From Escherichia coli (lineage in GTDB: Bacteria; Pseudomonadota; Gammaproteobacteria; Enterobacterales; Enterobacteriaceae), in assembly GCF_030013205.1 (NCBI RefSeq), contig NZ_CP122648.1: a DNA stretch of 64,000 nt; one strand, 5' to 3'. The position numbers are program-made. Numbering within the stretch: the stretch's first letter is position 1; every line of letters starts with the position of its first letter. This document shows positions 5,301-11,300 of the stretch, piece after piece.

Positions 5301-8300
5301 GGTATTCCGTGGGAAGGTAACTACTCCTCCTGGCTGGAGCAGAAAGATCAACGTCTGGCGCAGGAAGCTTCACAAGAAGCTGCGCGTCGTAAGTCGATTG
5401 AGAAAGAGCTGGAGTGGGTACGTCAGGGGACTAAAGGCCGTCAGTCGAAAGGTAAAGCACGTCTGGCGCGTTTTGAAGAGCTGAACAGCACCGAATATCA
5501 GAAACGTAACGAAACCAACGAACTGTTTATTCCACCGGGACCGCGTCTTGGCGATAAAGTGCTGGAAGTCAACAACCTGCGTAAATCCTATGGCGATCGT
5601 CTGCTGATTGATGACCTGAGCTTCTCGATCCCGAAAGGAGCGATCGTCGGGATCATCGGTCCGAACGGTGCGGGTAAATCGACCCTGTTCCGTATGATCT
5701 CCGGTCAGGAACAGCCGGACAGCGGCACCATCACTTTAGGTGAAACGGTGAAACTGGCATCGGTTGATCAGTTCCGTGACTCAATGGATAACAGCAAAAC
5801 CGTTTGGGAAGAAGTTTCCGGCGGGCTGGATATCATGAAGATCGGCAACACCGAGATGCCAAGCCGTGCCTACGTTGGCCGCTTTAACTTTAAAGGGGTT
5901 GATCAGGGTAAACGCGTTGGTGAACTCTCCGGCGGTGAGCGCGGTCGTCTGCATCTGGCGAAGCTGCTGCAAGTTGGCGGCAACATGTTGCTGCTCGACG
6001 AACCGACCAACGACCTGGATATCGAAACCCTGCGTGCGCTGGAAAACGCCCTGCTGGAGTTCCCGGGCTGCGCGATGGTTATCTCGCACGACCGTTGGTT
6101 CCTCGACCGTATCGCCACGCACATCCTGGACTACCAGGATGAAGGTAAAGTTGAGTTCTTCGAAGGTAACTTTACCGAGTACGAAGAGTACAAGAAACGC
6201 ACGCTGGGCGCAGACGCGCTGGAGCCGAAGCGTATCAAGTACAAGCGTATTGCGAAGTAATGCATAAAATGCCGGATGCGGCGCGCCAGCATCGCATCCG
6301 GTATTAGTTAAATGATTAGTCCCCGGAAAAAGGCAGAATTTTCTTTAAGCGTATTAGCTCAGATGCGGACTGACACCTCAAATCAAGCGGGAACTCATGG
6401 TTCCCGCTTAACGTTTTATTCACCGCGCAGGATCTGGCGGAAATGGGAAACCAGCGGACGTTGGTTGGCTTTATGCCAGGCTGCCCATAATTGCGTTGAA
6501 TAATTCATCCACGGCAATTCACGTAATACCACCCCTTCCGGCGCATTATGACGCAGACTATGTTGAATTAAGGCCAGACCTAATCCCGCAGCGACCAAAC
6601 CTAATGCCGTGAGGGGTTCACCCGCTTCCAGGCGAATATCAGGATTAAACCCGGCGTTAACACAGGCGGCGACAAAATGATCGCGAGAATGCGCATCGTC
6701 GTTATGAATCACCGCAATCCACTGCTCATCGCCAAGTTGTGACGCGACAAGGTTTTCCTCCTGCGCCAGAGGATGATTTTGCGGTAAGGCCAACAACATT
6801 CGATCATCCAGAACCTGAATATATTCCAGATCCTGCTCGCTGTCGGTGGGCGGCGTATCGACCAGAGAAAAATCGAGACTGCGCTGGCGCAGGCCTTCAA
6901 TCTGGGTAGCCGGTGGTTGGCTGTAAAGTGCGATATGCACATTCGGACGCGATACACGTAACGTACGTAGCGCCGTAGAAAGCACACCGGAATGCATGGC
7001 GTTTTCGATATAGCCAATACACAAGCCACCATCTTCCCCCCGTCCCAGGCGTTTGCCTAACGACTCCAGGCGGTTGGCGTGTGTCAGCAACGAACGTGTT
7101 TCGGCAAGGAATGTCTGTCCATCAGCGGTCAGGCGAATGCGCTGCTGATTACGCTCAAACAGCGTCAGCCCCAGCCGTTCTTCCAGTTGTGCAATCTGGC
7201 GGCTCAGCGGTGATTGCGAGATATGTAATCGCTCGGCTGCGCGTCCCACGTGCTCTTCTTCTGCGACCACCACGAAGTACTTCAGTTGGCGTAAATCAAT
7301 CATGTTAGACCTCAAAGGACTTAAGTCAGACGAATTATGTCCTATCAAGTCACAACATCGCAAGGTATTGTGATCCACGTCACAGGGCGATAGCAAAAAA
7401 ATGCCCTAACCCAAACCGAATAATTGAGGACATCTTATGAGCATCAAAAATTTACTTCCCGGCAAAATTGGCTTAGGCGGCGCACCACTCGGCAACATGT
7501 TCCGTGCCATTCCGGAAGACGAGGCCCACGCCACCGTGAGCGAAGCCTGGAACCTGGGCGTGCGTTACTTTGATACCGCGCCGCTGTACGGCTCTGGCCT
7601 TTCTGAAATCCGCATGGGCGAAGCGCTGTCTCAGTATCCACGTGATGAATACGTTCTGAGCAGCAAAGTCGGCCGCATCATGCTGGACGAAATGGAAGAT
7701 CCGGCAAAACGTGATTTCGGTGAAAAAGGTGGCCTGTTCGAACATGGCCTGAAAAACAAAATTCTGAATGACTACTCTGCTGACGCCACGCTGCGCTCGA
7801 TTGAAGACAGCCTGAAACGCCTGAAAACAGATCGTCTGGATATTGTCTGGATCCACGACCCGGCGCAGGACTTCTACGGTGACAGCTGGCTGGAGCAGTT
7901 CAACATAGCCCGTACCGGTGCGTTTCGTGCGCTGACGCGTTTGCGTGACGAAGGTGTGATTAAAGCCTGGGGACTGGGTGTGAATCGCGTCGAACCTTGC
8001 GAACTGACGCTGGCGCTGGACGAACCGAAGCCGGATGCGTTCCTGCTGGCGGGGCGTTATTCCCTGCTGGATCACGAACGTGCGCTGCAACGCCTGATGC
8101 CAGAAGCACTGGAACAGAACGTGGATATTGTTGTGGGCGGTCCGTACAGCTCTGGCGTACTGGCAGGCGGCGAGCACTTTGAATATCAGAAAGCTTCTGC
8201 GGCCATCCAGCAGAAAGTGGCGCAAATTAACACCATTGCCACACGTTTCAATGTGAACGTTAAAGCAGCTGCGCTGCAGTTCGCGCTGGCAAACCCGGCC

Positions 8301-11300
8301 GTTGCGGCGGTTATTCCTGGCTCCAGCCGTCCTGGCCGTATGGCAGAAGATCTGGCTGCACTGAATGCGCCTGTTCCGGCTGAATTCTGGGCAGAAATGC
8401 GCCGTCAAAATCTGGTTGCGGAAAACGCTCCACTGCCGACCCGTTAATCAACCTGGTGAGAAAACGATGAAACTGGATCTGACAGGTAAAGTCGCGGTGG
8501 TCAGCGGCTCAACCTCCGGCATTGGGCAGGGTATCGCCGCCGGACTGGCAAAAGCAGGCGCAACGGTGGTTGTCGTCGGCCGTAAACAGCGCGGCGTTGA
8601 TGACGCCATGGCTGCGATTGCGGCACAAACTCCCACGGCGTCACTGCGTGGCGTGGTGGCCGACCTCAGCACCGAAGACGGCGTGACTGCGCTGATCGCT
8701 GCAGTCCCAACGGCTGATGTGCTGGTCAATAATCTGGGCATTTTCAACGATAAAGATTTCTTTAGCGTTCCGGATGATGAGTGGCTGCACTTCTATAACG
8801 TCAACGTCCTCTCCGGCGTTCGTCTGGCGCGTCACTATGCGCCAGGCATGACGGAACAGGGCTGGGGGCGGATTATCTTTGTCTCGTCCGAATCCGGCGT
8901 GGCAATTCCTGGCGACATGATCAACTACGGCGTCACCAAAGCTGCGAATCTGGCGGTTTCTCATGGTCTGGCGAAACGACTGGCAGGGACCGGTGTGACC
9001 GTCAACGCCATTCTGCCAGGGCCAACCTTTACCGATGGCCTGAAAGAGATACTGGCGGATGCCGCTGCACAATCGGGGCGCAGTGCGCGTGAACAGGCCG
9101 ATGAGTTTGTTAAAACCTCGCGTCCGAGCTCCATCATCCAGCGTGCGGCGGATGTGGAGGAAGTAGCGAATCTGGCGGTTTATCTCGCGTCACCGCTTTC
9201 CTCGGCAACCACAGGGGCAGCTCTGCGCGTCGATGGCGGTGTCGTCGACACCCTGACTATGTAACCCTATAAATTAAGAGAAAATTATCATGGCTAAAAC
9301 AACTGTATCGATCGAAATTCCGGCTTCTGCCGACGCCGTATGGCAATTGATGGGCGGCTTTGATGCGCTGCCAGACTGGCTGCCGTTCATCCCGAAAAGC
9401 GTAGTGACAGAAGGCGGTCGCGTTCGTTCGCTGACAACCTCTGACGGCGGCACTGTGGTTGAACGTCTGGAAGCGTTTGATAACCGTCAACGCAGTTATA
9501 CCTATTCCATTATTCAGGCACCGTTCCCGGTGGTGGATTACCTCTCCACCATTACCGTTCATGAAACCGCCGACAGCCAGGTTTCCCGTGTGGAATGGTT
9601 CGGTGAATTCACCCCGGTGAATGTGACGAACGAAGAGGCCGAAGCGCTGTTTACCGGCATCTATCGGGATGGTCTCAAGGCGCTGAAGGACAACTTTGTT
9701 GCCTGATGCGATCGACAGGCGTCGGAACGTCCGGCGTCTGATTATTAACAAAATCAGAATAGTCTATTGCCATTTGTATCATTTATGTTATCAGGCAGTA
9801 GGCGTATTCTCTCCCCATCGCGTTAATAAACGCCAAACAATTAAGACACTCTGGAATATAAACATGAAAACGATCATCGCAATTTTTACGGCTTCTCTTT
9901 TCTCTGTCGCGGCGTTTAACGCATCGGCGCAAAGCGTGACAGCAACCGGTACAACACTGGATTCCGCTGAAGCGGTTATTGCGCAGAAAGCGAAAGAGAT
10001 GAACGCCTCTGAATACAAAATTACCAGCGCTCGCATGGGCAATACCGTCACCATGAGTGCCGAACTGTACAAATAACCGCACGAGAGACCCATTACGTAA
10101 TTTGCTAAATATGCGCTGAATGCGTTGCCATTAATAAACCGTATTGTAATGCCACCGATGACGCGTTCCCGTGCGGGTGCGGGTGACGTTGCGATTGACA
10201 TGATGGCGGAGTATTACGCGCAGCGCGCCAGTGCAGAACTTATCATCAGCGAAGGTACGCAAATCAGCAGAAGCGCTGCGCATAATTTTCCACGGCCCGC
10301 TGATTTACTCCGGTAAATAGACCAAAGCGCGCGCCGAAGCGGACTGTCAGATTTGATTGCATTCTGGCTACGCAACTGATCGGTTGGAGTATGAAGTTGC
10401 TCACGAATAGCCTTAGCATCTGCAATTTCGTAGCGGGTCACCCGTGCAGGTTCTTTCTAATCTCAACAGCCTCTTCCAGAGAGTTTTTCAACTCATCAAA
10501 AAAACTCAATTTATACCTCGCCTTTGAGCCGTTTCATCACGGTTATCTCTGCTCCCCCATCATCTCCCGCACAAGTTCCACGCAGCGCAGGAAACGGCTG
10601 TCATAATCGTCCTCTTCAACACGCACGAATTCGATATTGTTCTCTTCCAGCATCTCCACCAGCAAGTTCTGGAACTCTTTGCGATCCACCGAACTGCCGA
10701 GACTGCGTAAACCATCCGCCACCCACGGCGTGTTGTTCTCCAGCAAGATAACCAGATCAAAACGGTATTCATCAATCAGCGCCTGCACGAACGGATGCTC
10801 ACGCCCTTCGTACTTTTTGCAGAACGCCTGGGTAGTGACAAAATCAGTGTCGATAAACGCCACTTTATTGGCGTATTTCACTGCAAAATCAATATATTGC
10901 GCGTGTCCTAGCGCGATTTTATCGTAGTCGGAATACTGCAATGCGATCTCATCACCGCCAAGGTGTGAAAAGACATAATCGCGACCATATTCCCACGCAC
11001 TGGTGGTATTGAAGATATTGGCAAGTTTGTTTACCAGGGTGGATTTACCGCTCGACTCGCCGCCAAGGATCGCCACGGTACGCACAAAGAACGGCTTCAC
11101 TTCGGTGGGAATATATTCCCAGTAGCGGAACGGGTTTTCGCGGATCTGCGCACCGCTGATACTCATAAAGGTGCGTTTCGGATCGACCAGCACCGTTTCG
11201 ATCCCCAGATGTTCCATATACTGTGGCGCATCGGCTTCTTCCGAGGTGTAGATCAGGTCCGGCTGGATCCCCTTTTCAGCCATAAACTTTTTGATGCCGT

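What the first reader, a model, noticed from the sequence alone, without database searches (positions are those of the whole stretch)
6416..10320. About 4 kb accessory insert between ettA and nadR
As I recall, ettA and nadR are adjacent in K-12. Here a LysR-family regulator is divergently arranged with an aldo-keto reductase, SDR and SRPBCC gene set, followed by a small DUF1471 periplasmic protein and a 63-codon remnant of an old-yellow-enzyme gene. It looks like a decaying detoxification or redox islet rather than a mobile element, as I see no integrase or flanking repeats.
Basis: partly seen in the sequence, partly recalled or inferred. Interest (0 to 1): 0.35.

Follow-up and report, generated by a model that had tools for sequence, protein, structure and literature searches.

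The report
Accessory redox-gene islet splitting antitoxin nadS
This is an ordinary accessory gene islet carried by about 9% of complete E. coli genomes: a regulator plus three intact oxidoreductase-type genes of unknown substrate, inserted long ago into a leftover antitoxin gene between ettA and nadR.

Summary
Between ettA (4593-6260) and nadR (10543-11775) lie a LysR regulator, divergent AKR-SDR-SRPBCC genes, a DUF1471 gene and an old-yellow-enzyme (OYE) remnant. K-12 has only a short nadS pseudogene there. The islet is in 482 of 5,426 complete E. coli genomes, always as a single chromosomal copy at this site.

1. Only the OYE gene is decaying. The other five genes are intact and under strong purifying selection (dN/dS 0.02-0.20). 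LysR<->AKR-SDR-SRPBCC is a conserved module found in many Enterobacterales, Acinetobacter and dozens of Pseudomonas species.
2. The islet is a true insertion. It replaces 116 nt in the middle of nadS, the orphaned antitoxin of a RelE/ParE pair that is still intact in 673 genomes.
3. A 6-gene version with intact OYE exists in a cryptic Escherichia lineage, in Citrobacter and in Yokenella. In Escherichia the cassette sits at three different chromosomal sites, so it has moved, though it carries no integrase, tRNA or IS. Only an imperfect 19-nt direct repeat marks its junctions.

The most likely function is an inducer-responsive NAD(P)H-dependent carbonyl or electrophile reduction operon. The substrate is unknown. 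Interest is low to moderate.

The parts
4593..6260 (+). ettA, the left core flank
   Evidence: ORF. Annotated as ettA in the identical record.
6268..6305 (.). REP-like palindrome downstream of ettA, shared with genomes that lack the islet
   Evidence: Inverted repeat I10. Aligned to UPEC 26-1 and IAI39.
6316..6348 (-). 3'-terminal remnant of nadS (encodes ...LKENSAFF...), with an 11-nt deletion across the stop codon
   Evidence: Local alignment to the IAI39 ettA-nadR spacer, positions 56-99. Translation.
6349..6384 (.). Left junction DNA of unclear origin. It contains the left copy of the boundary direct repeat (6357-6375, core GCGGACTG at 6365-6372).
   Evidence: repeat family D11. No homology to intact nadS or to the cassette in other Escherichia.
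6385..6409 (-). Terminator hairpin of the LysR gene. It is the left end of the sequence shared with the cassette in E69 and E. whittamii.
   Evidence: 11-bp stem. Homology starts here.
6416..7303 (-). LysR-type transcriptional regulator, 295 aa
   Evidence: Pfam HTH_1 and LysR_substrate. RefSeq CDS. dN/dS 0.02-0.07.
7304..7436 (.). Divergent control region. It holds a conserved block at 7307-7352 (LysR Shine-Dalgarno sequence, then GGACTTAAGTC...AATTATGTCC, the putative LysR binding site), a candidate -10 TATTGT at 7366-7371, and the AKR Shine-Dalgarno GAGGA at 7426-7430.
   Evidence: Alignment of 21 species, with 80% consensus preserved from Duganella and Pseudomonas to E. coli. Coordinates. 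Binding itself is inferred, not shown.
7437..8447 (+). Aldo/keto reductase, 336 aa, with catalytic tetrad D46, Y51, K77, H140
   Evidence: Pfam E 1e-44. Motifs. Closest solved relatives are plant L-galactose dehydrogenases and IolS.
8467..9264 (+). Classical SDR oxidoreductase, 265 aa (G14xxxGxG, Y154xxxK158)
   Evidence: Pfam. Motifs. PDB 8g9m E 5e-136 and 3t4x E 5e-70.
9290..9706 (+). SRPBCC / START-like ligand-binding protein, 138 aa
   Evidence: Polyketide_cyc2 E 2e-30. PDB 3cnw 'XoxI' E 4e-52.
9864..10076 (+). DUF1471 (YhcN/BhsA/RclB-type) small secreted protein, 70 aa, with a signal-peptide-like N-terminus
   Evidence: Pfam 42 bits against a cut-off of 27. Weak NCBIfam hits to BhsA, RclB and YhcN. 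Sequence.
10095..10342 (+). Dead NemA-like old-yellow-enzyme gene. 10095-10268 is its first 58 codons (start ATG->ACG, codon 2 TAA). 10269-10342 is 74 nt from near its 3' end. A 686-bp internal deletion and a truncation 164 nt before the stop complete the damage.
   Evidence: blastn and alignment to the intact 365-aa gene of E69, L005 12659-13756.
10343..10394 (-). Right junction DNA. It looks like a diverged stretch of nadS (...AIKSDS against ...TIKSWES). The right copy of the boundary repeat (10331-10349) overlaps its start.
   Evidence: The nadS origin rests on inspection, not on a significance test.
10395..10509 (-). 5' part of nadS, frameshifted by a 10-nt deletion
   Evidence: Alignment to IAI39. 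RefSeq pseudogene 'NadS family protein, frameshifted'.
10543..11775 (-). nadR, the right core flank. The junction left by deletion of the RelE/ParE toxin gene lies just upstream of its stop codon and is shared with K-12 and IAI39.

Best explanation
WHAT IT IS (well supported). The region is a roughly 4-kb lineage-specific chromosomal islet.
- It derives from a six-gene cassette: LysR <-> AKR-SDR-SRPBCC-DUF1471-OYE.
- The cassette entered the E. coli chromosome by illegitimate recombination into nadS.
- By then nadS was an orphan antitoxin gene, because its RelE/ParE toxin partner had already been deleted.
- The event, or later decay, truncated and gutted the OYE gene. The other five genes were kept.
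- Since then the islet has been inherited with its flanks, and occasionally moved between backgrounds by homologous recombination.

HOW IT WORKS (inferred).
- The LysR-type regulator binds the conserved operator in the 133-bp divergent region. It represses its own gene.
- When it binds a small-molecule inducer it activates the AKR-SDR-SRPBCC operon.
- AKR and SDR are NAD(P)(H)-dependent carbonyl/alcohol oxidoreductases with intact catalytic residues.
- SRPBCC is a START-fold pocket protein that probably binds or presents a hydrophobic substrate or product.
- In the full cassette, the OYE ene-reductase would reduce the C=C bond of alpha,beta-unsaturated carbonyls or quinones, and AKR/SDR would reduce the carbonyl.
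- The most likely role is therefore inducible detoxification or biotransformation of a reactive carbonyl, quinone or electrophile from plant, soil or gut sources.
- E. coli keeps the carbonyl-reducing half and relies on other OYEs.
For: ACCESSORY STATUS AND POSITION
- 482 of 5,426 genomes carry it. Each has one chromosomal copy at 98-100% identity.
- All 10 contexts returned for the exact SRPBCC protein are ettA-nadR.

INSERTION POLARITY
- Relative to the intact orphan nadS of IAI39, the window keeps spacer positions 1-99 and 216-373. It replaces 116 nt of nadS with 6349-10394.
- The toxin-deletion junction is shared with K-12 and IAI39.
- The toxin gene is present in 673 genomes and central nadS in 730.

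SOURCE CASSETTE
- E69 (L005) has 97.5% nt identity across 6385-10268, plus an intact 365-aa OYE. Its core flank is only about 93.8% identical to E. coli.
- Citrobacter amalonaticus has the 6-gene version at 88.7% nt, and Yokenella at 81.7%.

FUNCTIONAL INTEGRITY
- dN/dS is 0.02-0.20 for five genes in six comparisons.
- Catalytic motifs are intact.

MODULE CONSERVATION
- 69 of the 80 best species loci have all four genes in the same order. At least five of the other eleven are cut by a contig or locus end.
- Distant copies exist on Ewingella, Burkholderia, Paraburkholderia, Cupriavidus and Streptomyces replicons.

REGULATION
- An operator-like block is conserved from Betaproteobacteria to E. 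coli.

OLD RESIDENCE
- Islet divergence among E. coli (1.5-1.7%) is similar to flank divergence.
- 9 of 11 islet-bearing loci cluster together on both flank trees.

LINK TO ELECTROPHILE AND STRESS CHEMISTRY
- OYE and DUF1471 genes are linked to the module repeatedly but in variable positions in Enterobacterales.
Against: - No substrate, inducer or expression data exist. Five literature searches found nothing on this cassette (and 39 for XoxI).
- No protein reaches an NCBIfam equivalog cut-off.
- The closest solved AKR relatives are L-galactose dehydrogenases, which oxidise sugars rather than reduce toxic aldehydes.
- E. coli and E. whittamii independently lost the OYE gene. Klebsiella, Yersinia, Serratia and Pseudomonas versions lack it. 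The enone-reduction part of the model is therefore not essential to the module.
- Promoter and terminator scans are at chance level.
- The junction DNA (6349-6384 and 10343-10394) is not fully explained, and no empty-site allele was found.
Confidence: 0.6

Rival explanations
1. The module is a catabolic or biotransformation unit for one specific neutral compound, not a general detoxification system. Candidates are an aldose or lactol (L-fucose, L-galactose or D-arabinose type) or a hydrophobic alcohol or ketone. The AKR would act as an NAD(P)+-dependent 1-dehydrogenase, the SDR as a second dehydrogenase, and the SRPBCC protein as a binding or isomerising helper.
For: - The closest solved AKR relatives are L-galactose dehydrogenases (E 2e-29) and IolS.
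- SDR relatives include sorbose reductase and 3-hydroxybutyrate dehydrogenases.
- The LysR protein resembles the catabolic or metabolic regulators AlsR, HcaR, GltC, CatM and BenM.
- The module is core-like in soil and plant-associated Pseudomonas.
Against: - No transporter, lactonase, dehydratase or aldolase is consistently linked to it. Flanking genes differ between genera, and within Pseudomonas they are just the local chromosomal neighbourhood.
- Linkage to OYE and DUF1471 stress-type genes in Enterobacterales points to electrophile stress.
- Similarity to L-galactose dehydrogenase is partial. The best stretch covers residues 10-81.
Confidence: 0.22
2. The islet as a whole is a decaying, non-functional relic.
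For: - The OYE gene has four independent lesions.
- nadS is broken.
- DUF1471 is truncated to 40 aa in one sampled genome (L090).
- IS1397 and IS200C insertions lie within the matched islet region in single strains.
Against: - dN/dS is 0.02-0.20 for all five remaining genes, including comparisons within Escherichia.
- LysR, AKR, SDR and SRPBCC are full length in all 10 sampled E. coli contexts.
- Catalytic motifs are intact.
- The operator is conserved.
- The islet has been retained at 98-100% identity in 482 genomes, with divergence comparable to core flanks.
Confidence: 0.05
3. The cassette is a discrete mobile unit, moved in trans by an unidentified recombinase or through a hairpin-dependent mechanism, with a preference for toxin-antitoxin loci.
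For: - Three Escherichia lineages carry it at three sites: in nadS (E. coli), replacing hokA/sokA (E. whittamii), and next to yhiN and the ProA anti-phage gene (E69).
- The left boundary is the same in all three to within about 3 nt, at the base of the LysR terminator hairpin.
- An imperfect 19-nt direct repeat marks the E. coli junctions.
Against: - There is no integrase, transposase, IS end, tRNA or inverted terminal repeat.
- There is no close plasmid or phage copy.
- The right boundaries differ between the three sites.
- An 8-nt exact repeat in two roughly 40-nt junction windows has a chance expectation of a few percent, and it was found post hoc.
- Within E. coli there is only one site in 482 genomes.
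- Toxin-antitoxin and defence loci are general hotspots for variable DNA.
Confidence: 0.1
4. The gene set is ancestral at ettA-nadR and was lost from most E. coli, rather than gained.
For: - The islet's divergence among E. coli is as deep as that of the flanks.
- The K-12-type nadS remnant could be derived from the islet-bearing state by deletion, because both share the toxin-deletion junction.
Against: - The islet interrupts nadS. Uninterrupted nadS, with or without the toxin, exists in 730 genomes, including the B2 and F reference strains. Intact nadS must therefore predate the insertion.
- Among Escherichia species representatives, the best 80 AKR hits contained only E69 and E. whittamii, and both carry the cassette at other sites.
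- The islet is closer to E69 (97.5%) than the core genome is (93.8%).
Confidence: 0.07

Closest known systems
YqhC-yqhD-dkgA of E. coli K-12: a divergent regulator with an aldehyde reductase and an AKR, induced by reactive aldehydes (comparison from my own knowledge)
   Same: A divergently transcribed regulator next to two NAD(P)H-dependent carbonyl reductases, one of them an AKR. A presumed inducible aldehyde or electrophile defence.
   Different: - The regulator there is AraC-type, not LysR-type.
- YqhD is an iron-dependent alcohol dehydrogenase, not an SDR.
- There is no SRPBCC partner.
- The AKR here scores far below the DkgA and DkgB cut-offs (28 and 38 bits against 425 and 327).
- yqhC-yqhD-dkgA is core; this islet is accessory.
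NemR-nemA-gloA and RclR-rclABC electrophile and reactive-chlorine regulons of E. coli (comparison from my own knowledge)
   Same: The full cassette contains a NemA-like OYE (396 bits against the 403 cut-off in E69) and a DUF1471 protein of the RclB/BhsA/YhcN type. These are the same protein kinds as in those stress regulons.
   Different: - The regulators differ (TetR- or AraC-type against LysR).
- The OYE is dead in E. coli.
- The DUF1471 protein does not reach any equivalog cut-off.
- The conserved core here (AKR, SRPBCC, +/- SDR) has no counterpart in those regulons.
Structural-genomics proteins PDB 3cnw 'XoxI' and 3f08 (Bacillus cereus group, SRPBCC) and PDB 8g9m and 3t4x (SDR)
   Same: Close sequence relatives of the SRPBCC protein (E 4e-52 and 1e-50) and of the SDR (E 5e-136 and 5e-70). 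The folds are therefore known.
   Different: None has an assigned function or ligand in the names available here. I did not examine their genomic context.
RelE/ParE-NadS type II toxin-antitoxin pair at ettA-nadR (intact in UPEC 26-1, UTI89 and 673 genomes)
   Same: The islet's flanks are the two ends of nadS. The toxin-deletion scar is the same as in K-12 and IAI39.
   Different: In the window the toxin gene is gone and the antitoxin is split and frameshifted. The toxin-antitoxin system is the landing site, not part of the islet's function.
Classical integrative genomic islands
   Same: Strain-variable presence at a fixed chromosomal site, with foreign origin supported by higher similarity to another species than the core shows.
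   Different: - There is no integrase, tRNA target or GC deviation.
- It is only 4 kb.
- It was apparently fixed by illegitimate recombination and then spread vertically or by flanking homologous recombination.

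Membership tests
LysR-type transcriptional regulators (LTTR) | N-terminal winged HTH (HTH_1) plus C-terminal LysR substrate-binding domain | tested here: met
   PF00126 E 3.4e-24 (residues 35-94 of the long ORF). PF03466 E 9.3e-39.
LysR-type transcriptional regulators (LTTR) | Divergent arrangement with the regulated operon and a conserved operator in the shared control region | tested here: met
   133-bp divergent spacer. The block at 7307-7352 is >=80% conserved across 21 species. Actual binding was not tested.
LysR-type transcriptional regulators (LTTR) | Membership of a named, characterised LTTR (AlsR, HcaR, GltC, CatM/BenM, OxyR...) | tested here: not met
   The best hit is AlsR at 223 bits against a cut-off of 430. 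All others are also below their cut-offs.
Aldo/keto reductase superfamily | Full-length AKR (TIM-barrel) domain | tested here: met
   PF00248 E 1.1e-44, residues 10-322 against profile positions 1-287 of 291.
Aldo/keto reductase superfamily | Catalytic tetrad Asp-Tyr-Lys-His | tested here: met
   D46 and Y51 in FDTAPLYG, K77 in SSKVG, H140 in WIHDP. Assigned by motif inspection, not by structural superposition.
Aldo/keto reductase superfamily | Membership of a characterised AKR (YdjG, DkgA, DkgB, YghZ-type) | tested here: not met
   The best hit is YdjG at 71.5 bits against a cut-off of 550.
Classical short-chain dehydrogenases/reductases | Rossmann-fold glycine motif, catalytic Ser and YxxxK | tested here: met
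   adh_short and adh_short_C2 E 1e-37 and 1e-44. G14STSGIG, NNLG at 88, SSESG at 140, Y154GVTK158.
SRPBCC / START-like superfamily (Polyketide_cyc2) | Full-length Polyketide_cyc2 domain and a close relative of known fold | tested here: met
   PF10604 E 1.7e-30 over residues 1-136. PDB 3cnw E 4e-52. Ligand unknown.
DUF1471 / YhcN family of small periplasmic stress proteins | YdgH/BhsA/McbA-like domain after a signal peptide | tested here: met
   PF07338 42 bits against a cut-off of 27. The N-terminus MKTIIAIFTASLFSVAAFNASA-Q looks like a Sec signal, by inspection only. The BhsA, RclB and YhcN equivalogs are not reached, at 31, 29 and 28 bits against 90-125.
Old yellow enzyme / NemA family | Complete FMN oxidoreductase domain with an open reading frame | tested here: not met
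   Only profile positions 12-64 of 342 remain. Start codon lost, stop at codon 2, 686-bp deletion, 3' truncation. The gene is intact (365 aa) in E69, Yokenella, Citrobacter and Providencia.
Integrative genomic island or mobile element | Integrase, transposase or other recombinase gene | tested here: not met
   No such ORF or domain in 6261-10542.
Integrative genomic island or mobile element | tRNA/tmRNA target and flanking direct repeats | tested here: inconclusive
   No tRNA in 1-16000. The only boundary repeat is 15/19 nt with an 8-nt exact core, which is compatible with microhomology or chance.
Integrative genomic island or mobile element | Compositional deviation, or copies on plasmids or phages | tested here: not met
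   GC 0.51-0.59, like the flanks. No plasmid copy above 90% identity and no phage match.
Type II toxin-antitoxin system RelE/ParE-NadS | Intact toxin and antitoxin genes | tested here: not met
   The toxin gene is deleted at the same junction as in K-12 and IAI39. nadS is split by the islet and frameshifted.

The most novel reading that the evidence does not exclude
LysR<->AKR-(SDR)-SRPBCC may be an uncharacterised pathway for one specific, ecologically important small molecule that nobody has yet assigned. That molecule could be a plant or microbial carbonyl toxin, or a signal.
- The module is very widely conserved. It is seen here from E. coli, Klebsiella and Citrobacter through Acinetobacter and Pseudomonas to Burkholderia and Streptomyces replicons.
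- Close SDR and SRPBCC relatives have been solved from Bacillus.
- The E. coli islet would give a genetically tractable entry point.

A more exotic reading is also not excluded: the cassette may be a recombinase-less unit that repeatedly lands in toxin-antitoxin or defence loci (nadS, hokA, next to ProA).
Probability: 0.3. Interest if true: 0.5.

Novelty: new member of a known kind. Interest (0 to 1): 0.28.

Why it matters
- Five literature searches found nothing on this cassette, and it is a common accessory locus (about 9% of complete E. coli genomes). Its exact SRPBCC protein is indexed in more than 33,000 blocks of the assembly collection.
- The four-gene core is conserved across Gammaproteobacteria and beyond, yet none of its proteins reaches a functional equivalog cut-off. 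Finding the inducer and substrate would annotate thousands of genomes at once.
- The ettA-nadR spacer is a compact record of toxin-antitoxin decay. I saw at least seven states:
  1. intact toxin-antitoxin pair;
  2. orphan antitoxin;
  3. truncated antitoxin;
  4. REP-replaced remnant;
  5. complete loss;
  6. islet insertion;
  7. an islet plus toxin-antitoxin hybrid.
  This makes it a useful lineage marker.
- None of this overturns current understanding. It is a well-behaved, ordinary accessory islet.

Tried and rejected
- LITERATURE. Searches for the gene combination, the RefSeq protein accessions, yjjK/nadR islands and 'XoxI' returned nothing relevant. The only nadS papers merely report its expression in K-12.
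- RNA FAMILIES. An Rfam scan of 6000-10800 gave only a chance miRNA hit.
- PROMOTERS AND TERMINATORS. Consensus scans were at shuffle level.
- EMPTY SITE. A synthetic query joining the two flanks across one copy of GCGGACTG found no E. coli genome with that allele. The junction DNA therefore stays unexplained.
- PHYLOGROUP. I first guessed the islet marks phylogroup D. Strain 042 (D) has the K-12-type remnant, and IAI39 and SMS-3-5 (F) have orphan or truncated nadS. UMN026 was not retrievable. The phylogroup distribution is therefore undetermined. Islet-bearing strains include several O145:H28 and an O166:H15.
- FLANKING GENES. Clustering of flanking genes in the 80 species loci gave no consistently linked transporter or pathway gene.
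- PLASMIDS AND PHAGES. Searches gave no close copies.
- NOT RUN. I did not run structure prediction or fold searches, because close solved homologues without assigned function already exist.

Full report
OBSERVATION

The window is E. coli. Positions 6200-10600 are 100% identical to strain K_EC180 from swine. The gene order is:
- slt (minus strand)
- ettA (4593-6260)
- a LysR-type regulator (6416-7303, minus strand)
- an aldo/keto reductase (7437-8447)
- an SDR (8467-9264)
- an SRPBCC protein (9290-9706)
- a DUF1471 protein (9864-10076)
- an old-yellow-enzyme (OYE) fragment
- nadR (10543-11775, minus strand), then radA and serB

All families are supported by strong Pfam matches. In K-12 derivatives the only thing between ettA and nadR is a 114-nt nadS pseudogene and REP repeats. 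The interior of the islet is found in 482 of 5,426 complete E. coli genomes. It is always one chromosomal copy, at 98-100% identity. The exact SRPBCC protein is listed in 33,492 blocks of the assembly collection, and all 10 distinct contexts returned are ettA-nadR. The observation and the label 'accessory' are therefore confirmed.

THE LOCUS HAS SEVERAL STATES, AND THE ISLET IS A TRUE INSERTION

I found seven states at this locus:
1. An intact RelE/ParE toxin plus NadS antitoxin (UPEC 26-1, UTI89). The toxin gene is in 673 genomes.
2. An intact orphan nadS with the toxin deleted (IAI39). Central nadS is in 730 genomes, so about 57 are orphans.
3. A truncated nadS (SMS-3-5).
4. A 5' nadS remnant followed by REP units (K-12, O157:H7, 042).
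5. Nothing (Ec55, EC958).
6. The islet.
7. A hybrid in strain 06-00048. Here the islet is followed by a partial duplicate of the ettA 3' end, then intact nadS and the toxin.

Aligned to IAI39, the window keeps spacer positions 1-99 (6261-6348, including the last codons of nadS) and 216-373 (10395-10542, the 5' part of nadS). The middle 116 nt of nadS are replaced by 6349-10394. The toxin-deletion junction next to nadR is identical in the window, K-12 and IAI39.

The order of events is therefore:
1. intact toxin-antitoxin pair;
2. toxin lost;
3. islet inserted into the orphan antitoxin.

Whether the K-12 state arose independently or by later deletion cannot be decided from these data.

WHERE THE ISLET CAME FROM

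Window 6385-10268 matches L005 8949-12832 at 97.5% nt, and 10269-10342 matches L005 13519-13592. L005 comes from a genome deposited as E. coli E69. Its pitA-yhiN-uspB flank is only about 93.8% identical to every E. coli genome, so it is a cryptic-clade Escherichia. There the cassette lies downstream of yhiN, beside a ProA anti-phage gene. It ends with an intact 365-aa NemA-like OYE gene.

The E. coli copy of that OYE gene has four lesions:
- a lost start codon (ATG->ACG);
- TAA at codon 2;
- a 686-bp internal deletion;
- loss of the last 164 nt at the insertion junction.

E. whittamii carries the cassette at a third site, where it replaces the hokA/sokA locus between glyS and the cspE-annotated cold-shock gene. 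Its internal OYE deletion is different and independent. The E. whittamii copy is also mosaic: dS is about 0.07 for LysR, AKR and SDR, but 0.30-0.52 for SRPBCC and DUF1471.

Six-gene versions with intact OYE exist in Citrobacter amalonaticus (88.7% nt) and Yokenella (81.7% nt). A five-gene version without OYE is common in Klebsiella, next to gabDTP-csiR.

Within E. coli, the islet's divergence (1.5-1.7%) is similar to that of the flanks (0.9-2.7%). Nine of 11 islet-bearing loci cluster together on both flank trees, and two are recombinants. This fits one old insertion, followed by vertical descent and occasional homologous exchange.

NOT DECAYING, EXCEPT FOR OYE

dN/dS for LysR, AKR, SDR, SRPBCC and DUF1471 is 0.02-0.20 against E69, E. 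whittamii, Trabulsiella, Yokenella, Yersinia and Serratia. The AKR has the Asp-Tyr-Lys-His tetrad. The SDR has the glycine motif, catalytic Ser and YxxxK.

The divergent LysR<->AKR-SDR-SRPBCC arrangement, with the same order and spacing, occurs in 69 of the 80 best species-level loci. At least five of the other eleven are simply cut by a contig or locus end. The 80 loci span Trabulsiella, Yokenella, Yersinia, Klebsiella, Raoultella, Providencia, Serratia, Ewingella, Acinetobacter and dozens of Pseudomonas species. More distant copies lie on an Ewingella plasmid and on Burkholderia, Paraburkholderia, Cupriavidus and Streptomyces megareplicons. There the persistent trio is LysR, AKR and SRPBCC. 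Two Pseudomonas loci also lack the SDR.

The 133-bp control region contains a block (7307-7352) that is at least 80% conserved from Duganella and Pseudomonas to E. coli. It holds the LysR Shine-Dalgarno sequence, then GGACTTAAGTC...AATTATGTCC, followed by a conserved TAnnnT (TATTGT, 7366-7371). I read this as the LysR binding site and the operon's -10 element. That reading is inference.

FUNCTION

No protein reaches an NCBIfam equivalog cut-off. Solved relatives are:
- plant L-galactose dehydrogenases and IolS for the AKR;
- unassigned structural-genomics SDRs 8g9m and 3t4x;
- unassigned SRPBCC proteins 3cnw ('XoxI') and 3f08.

No transporter or further pathway enzyme is consistently linked to the module. 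In Enterobacterales the module repeatedly associates with a NemA-like OYE and a DUF1471 stress-type protein, though in variable positions. In Trabulsiella odontotermitis they are on the other side of the LysR gene. In Providencia the OYE gene is 3 kb downstream.

My best reading is a LysR-activated, NAD(P)H-dependent operon that reduces or transforms a reactive carbonyl, quinone or enone compound, with SRPBCC as a hydrophobic-ligand partner. A catabolic role, with the AKR as an aldose or lactol dehydrogenase, is the main rival. Only experiments can decide between them.

MOBILITY

The islet has no integrase, transposase, tRNA or GC deviation. There is no close plasmid copy and no phage copy.

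Three features hint at a defined unit:
- the same left boundary (within about 3 nt), at the base of the LysR terminator hairpin, at three chromosomal sites;
- two of the three landing sites are toxin-antitoxin loci;
- an imperfect 19-nt direct repeat (8 nt exact) at the E. coli junctions.

The right boundaries differ, the repeat is short and was found post hoc, and hairpins and toxin-antitoxin or defence loci are general recombination hotspots. I therefore favour illegitimate recombination.

VERDICT

This is a real, common and apparently undescribed accessory islet. It is ordinary in kind: a new member of LysR-controlled oxidoreductase operons, fixed in a decayed toxin-antitoxin locus. 'Decaying' applies only to the OYE gene. 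'Not mobile' is right in the sense that it carries no mobility machinery, although the cassette clearly has moved between species and sites.

Noticed in passing
L085 (NZ_CP015229.1, strain 06-00048), locus 1-3100: A hybrid locus. The islet's right part and OYE remnant are followed by a frameshifted 761-nt duplicate of the ettA 3' end, then intact nadS, the RelE/ParE toxin and nadR. It looks like a secondary illegitimate recombination that re-imported the toxin-antitoxin pair next to the islet.
   Followed up: partly
window 10510-10545, and L003 6403-6826, L100 17048-17420: The ettA-nadR spacer shows at least seven states in E. coli: intact toxin-antitoxin pair (toxin gene in 673 genomes), orphan nadS (about 57 genomes), truncated nadS, REP-replaced remnant, none, islet, and hybrid. 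The toxin-deletion scar is shared by K-12, IAI39 and the window. After that deletion nadS sits 33 nt downstream of nadR.
   Followed up: partly
L006 (E. whittamii) 8902-13228, against L099 (E. coli A38) 3403-3963: In E. whittamii the same cassette replaces the hokA/sokA type I toxin-antitoxin locus between glyS and the cspE-annotated gene. Its OYE gene carries a different internal deletion from the E. coli one, so OYE was lost twice independently.
   Followed up: yes
L006 11854-12634: The E. whittamii cassette is mosaic relative to E. coli. dS is about 0.07 for LysR, AKR and SDR, but 0.30 for SRPBCC and 0.52 for DUF1471. This implies recombination inside the cassette.
   Followed up: no
L005 (CP089930.1, 'E. 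coli E69') 14523-20420: A 1,965-aa ProA anti-phage protein gene (2,200 bits against a cut-off of 1,500) lies immediately beyond the cassette, downstream of pitA-yhiN. That region is another variable hotspot. The genome's core flank is only about 94% identical to E. coli, so the species label looks doubtful.
   Followed up: partly
L007 (JAIJJM010000794.1, 'Collinsella sp.' MAG contig, 1,397 nt): A contig binned as Collinsella is 99.2% identical to the E. coli islet (window 7036-8431). This is almost certainly binning contamination.
   Followed up: no
H3 (NZ_CP020495.1, strain 103), H33 (NZ_AP027432.1, EC581), L090 8575-8697: Sporadic secondary damage in some strains. IS1397 and IS200C transposase genes are annotated under islet matches that are split into two pieces. 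The DUF1471 gene is truncated to 40 aa in one sampled genome.
   Followed up: no
L086-L095 at about 14695-16026 (the lplA-deoD interval, outside the finding); window coordinates not checked: Downstream of lplA, some islet-bearing genomes have the HipA-family toxin gene yjjJ (443 aa). Others have only a small HTH gene (75-87 aa). This is another variable toxin-antitoxin-type site close to the finding.
   Followed up: no
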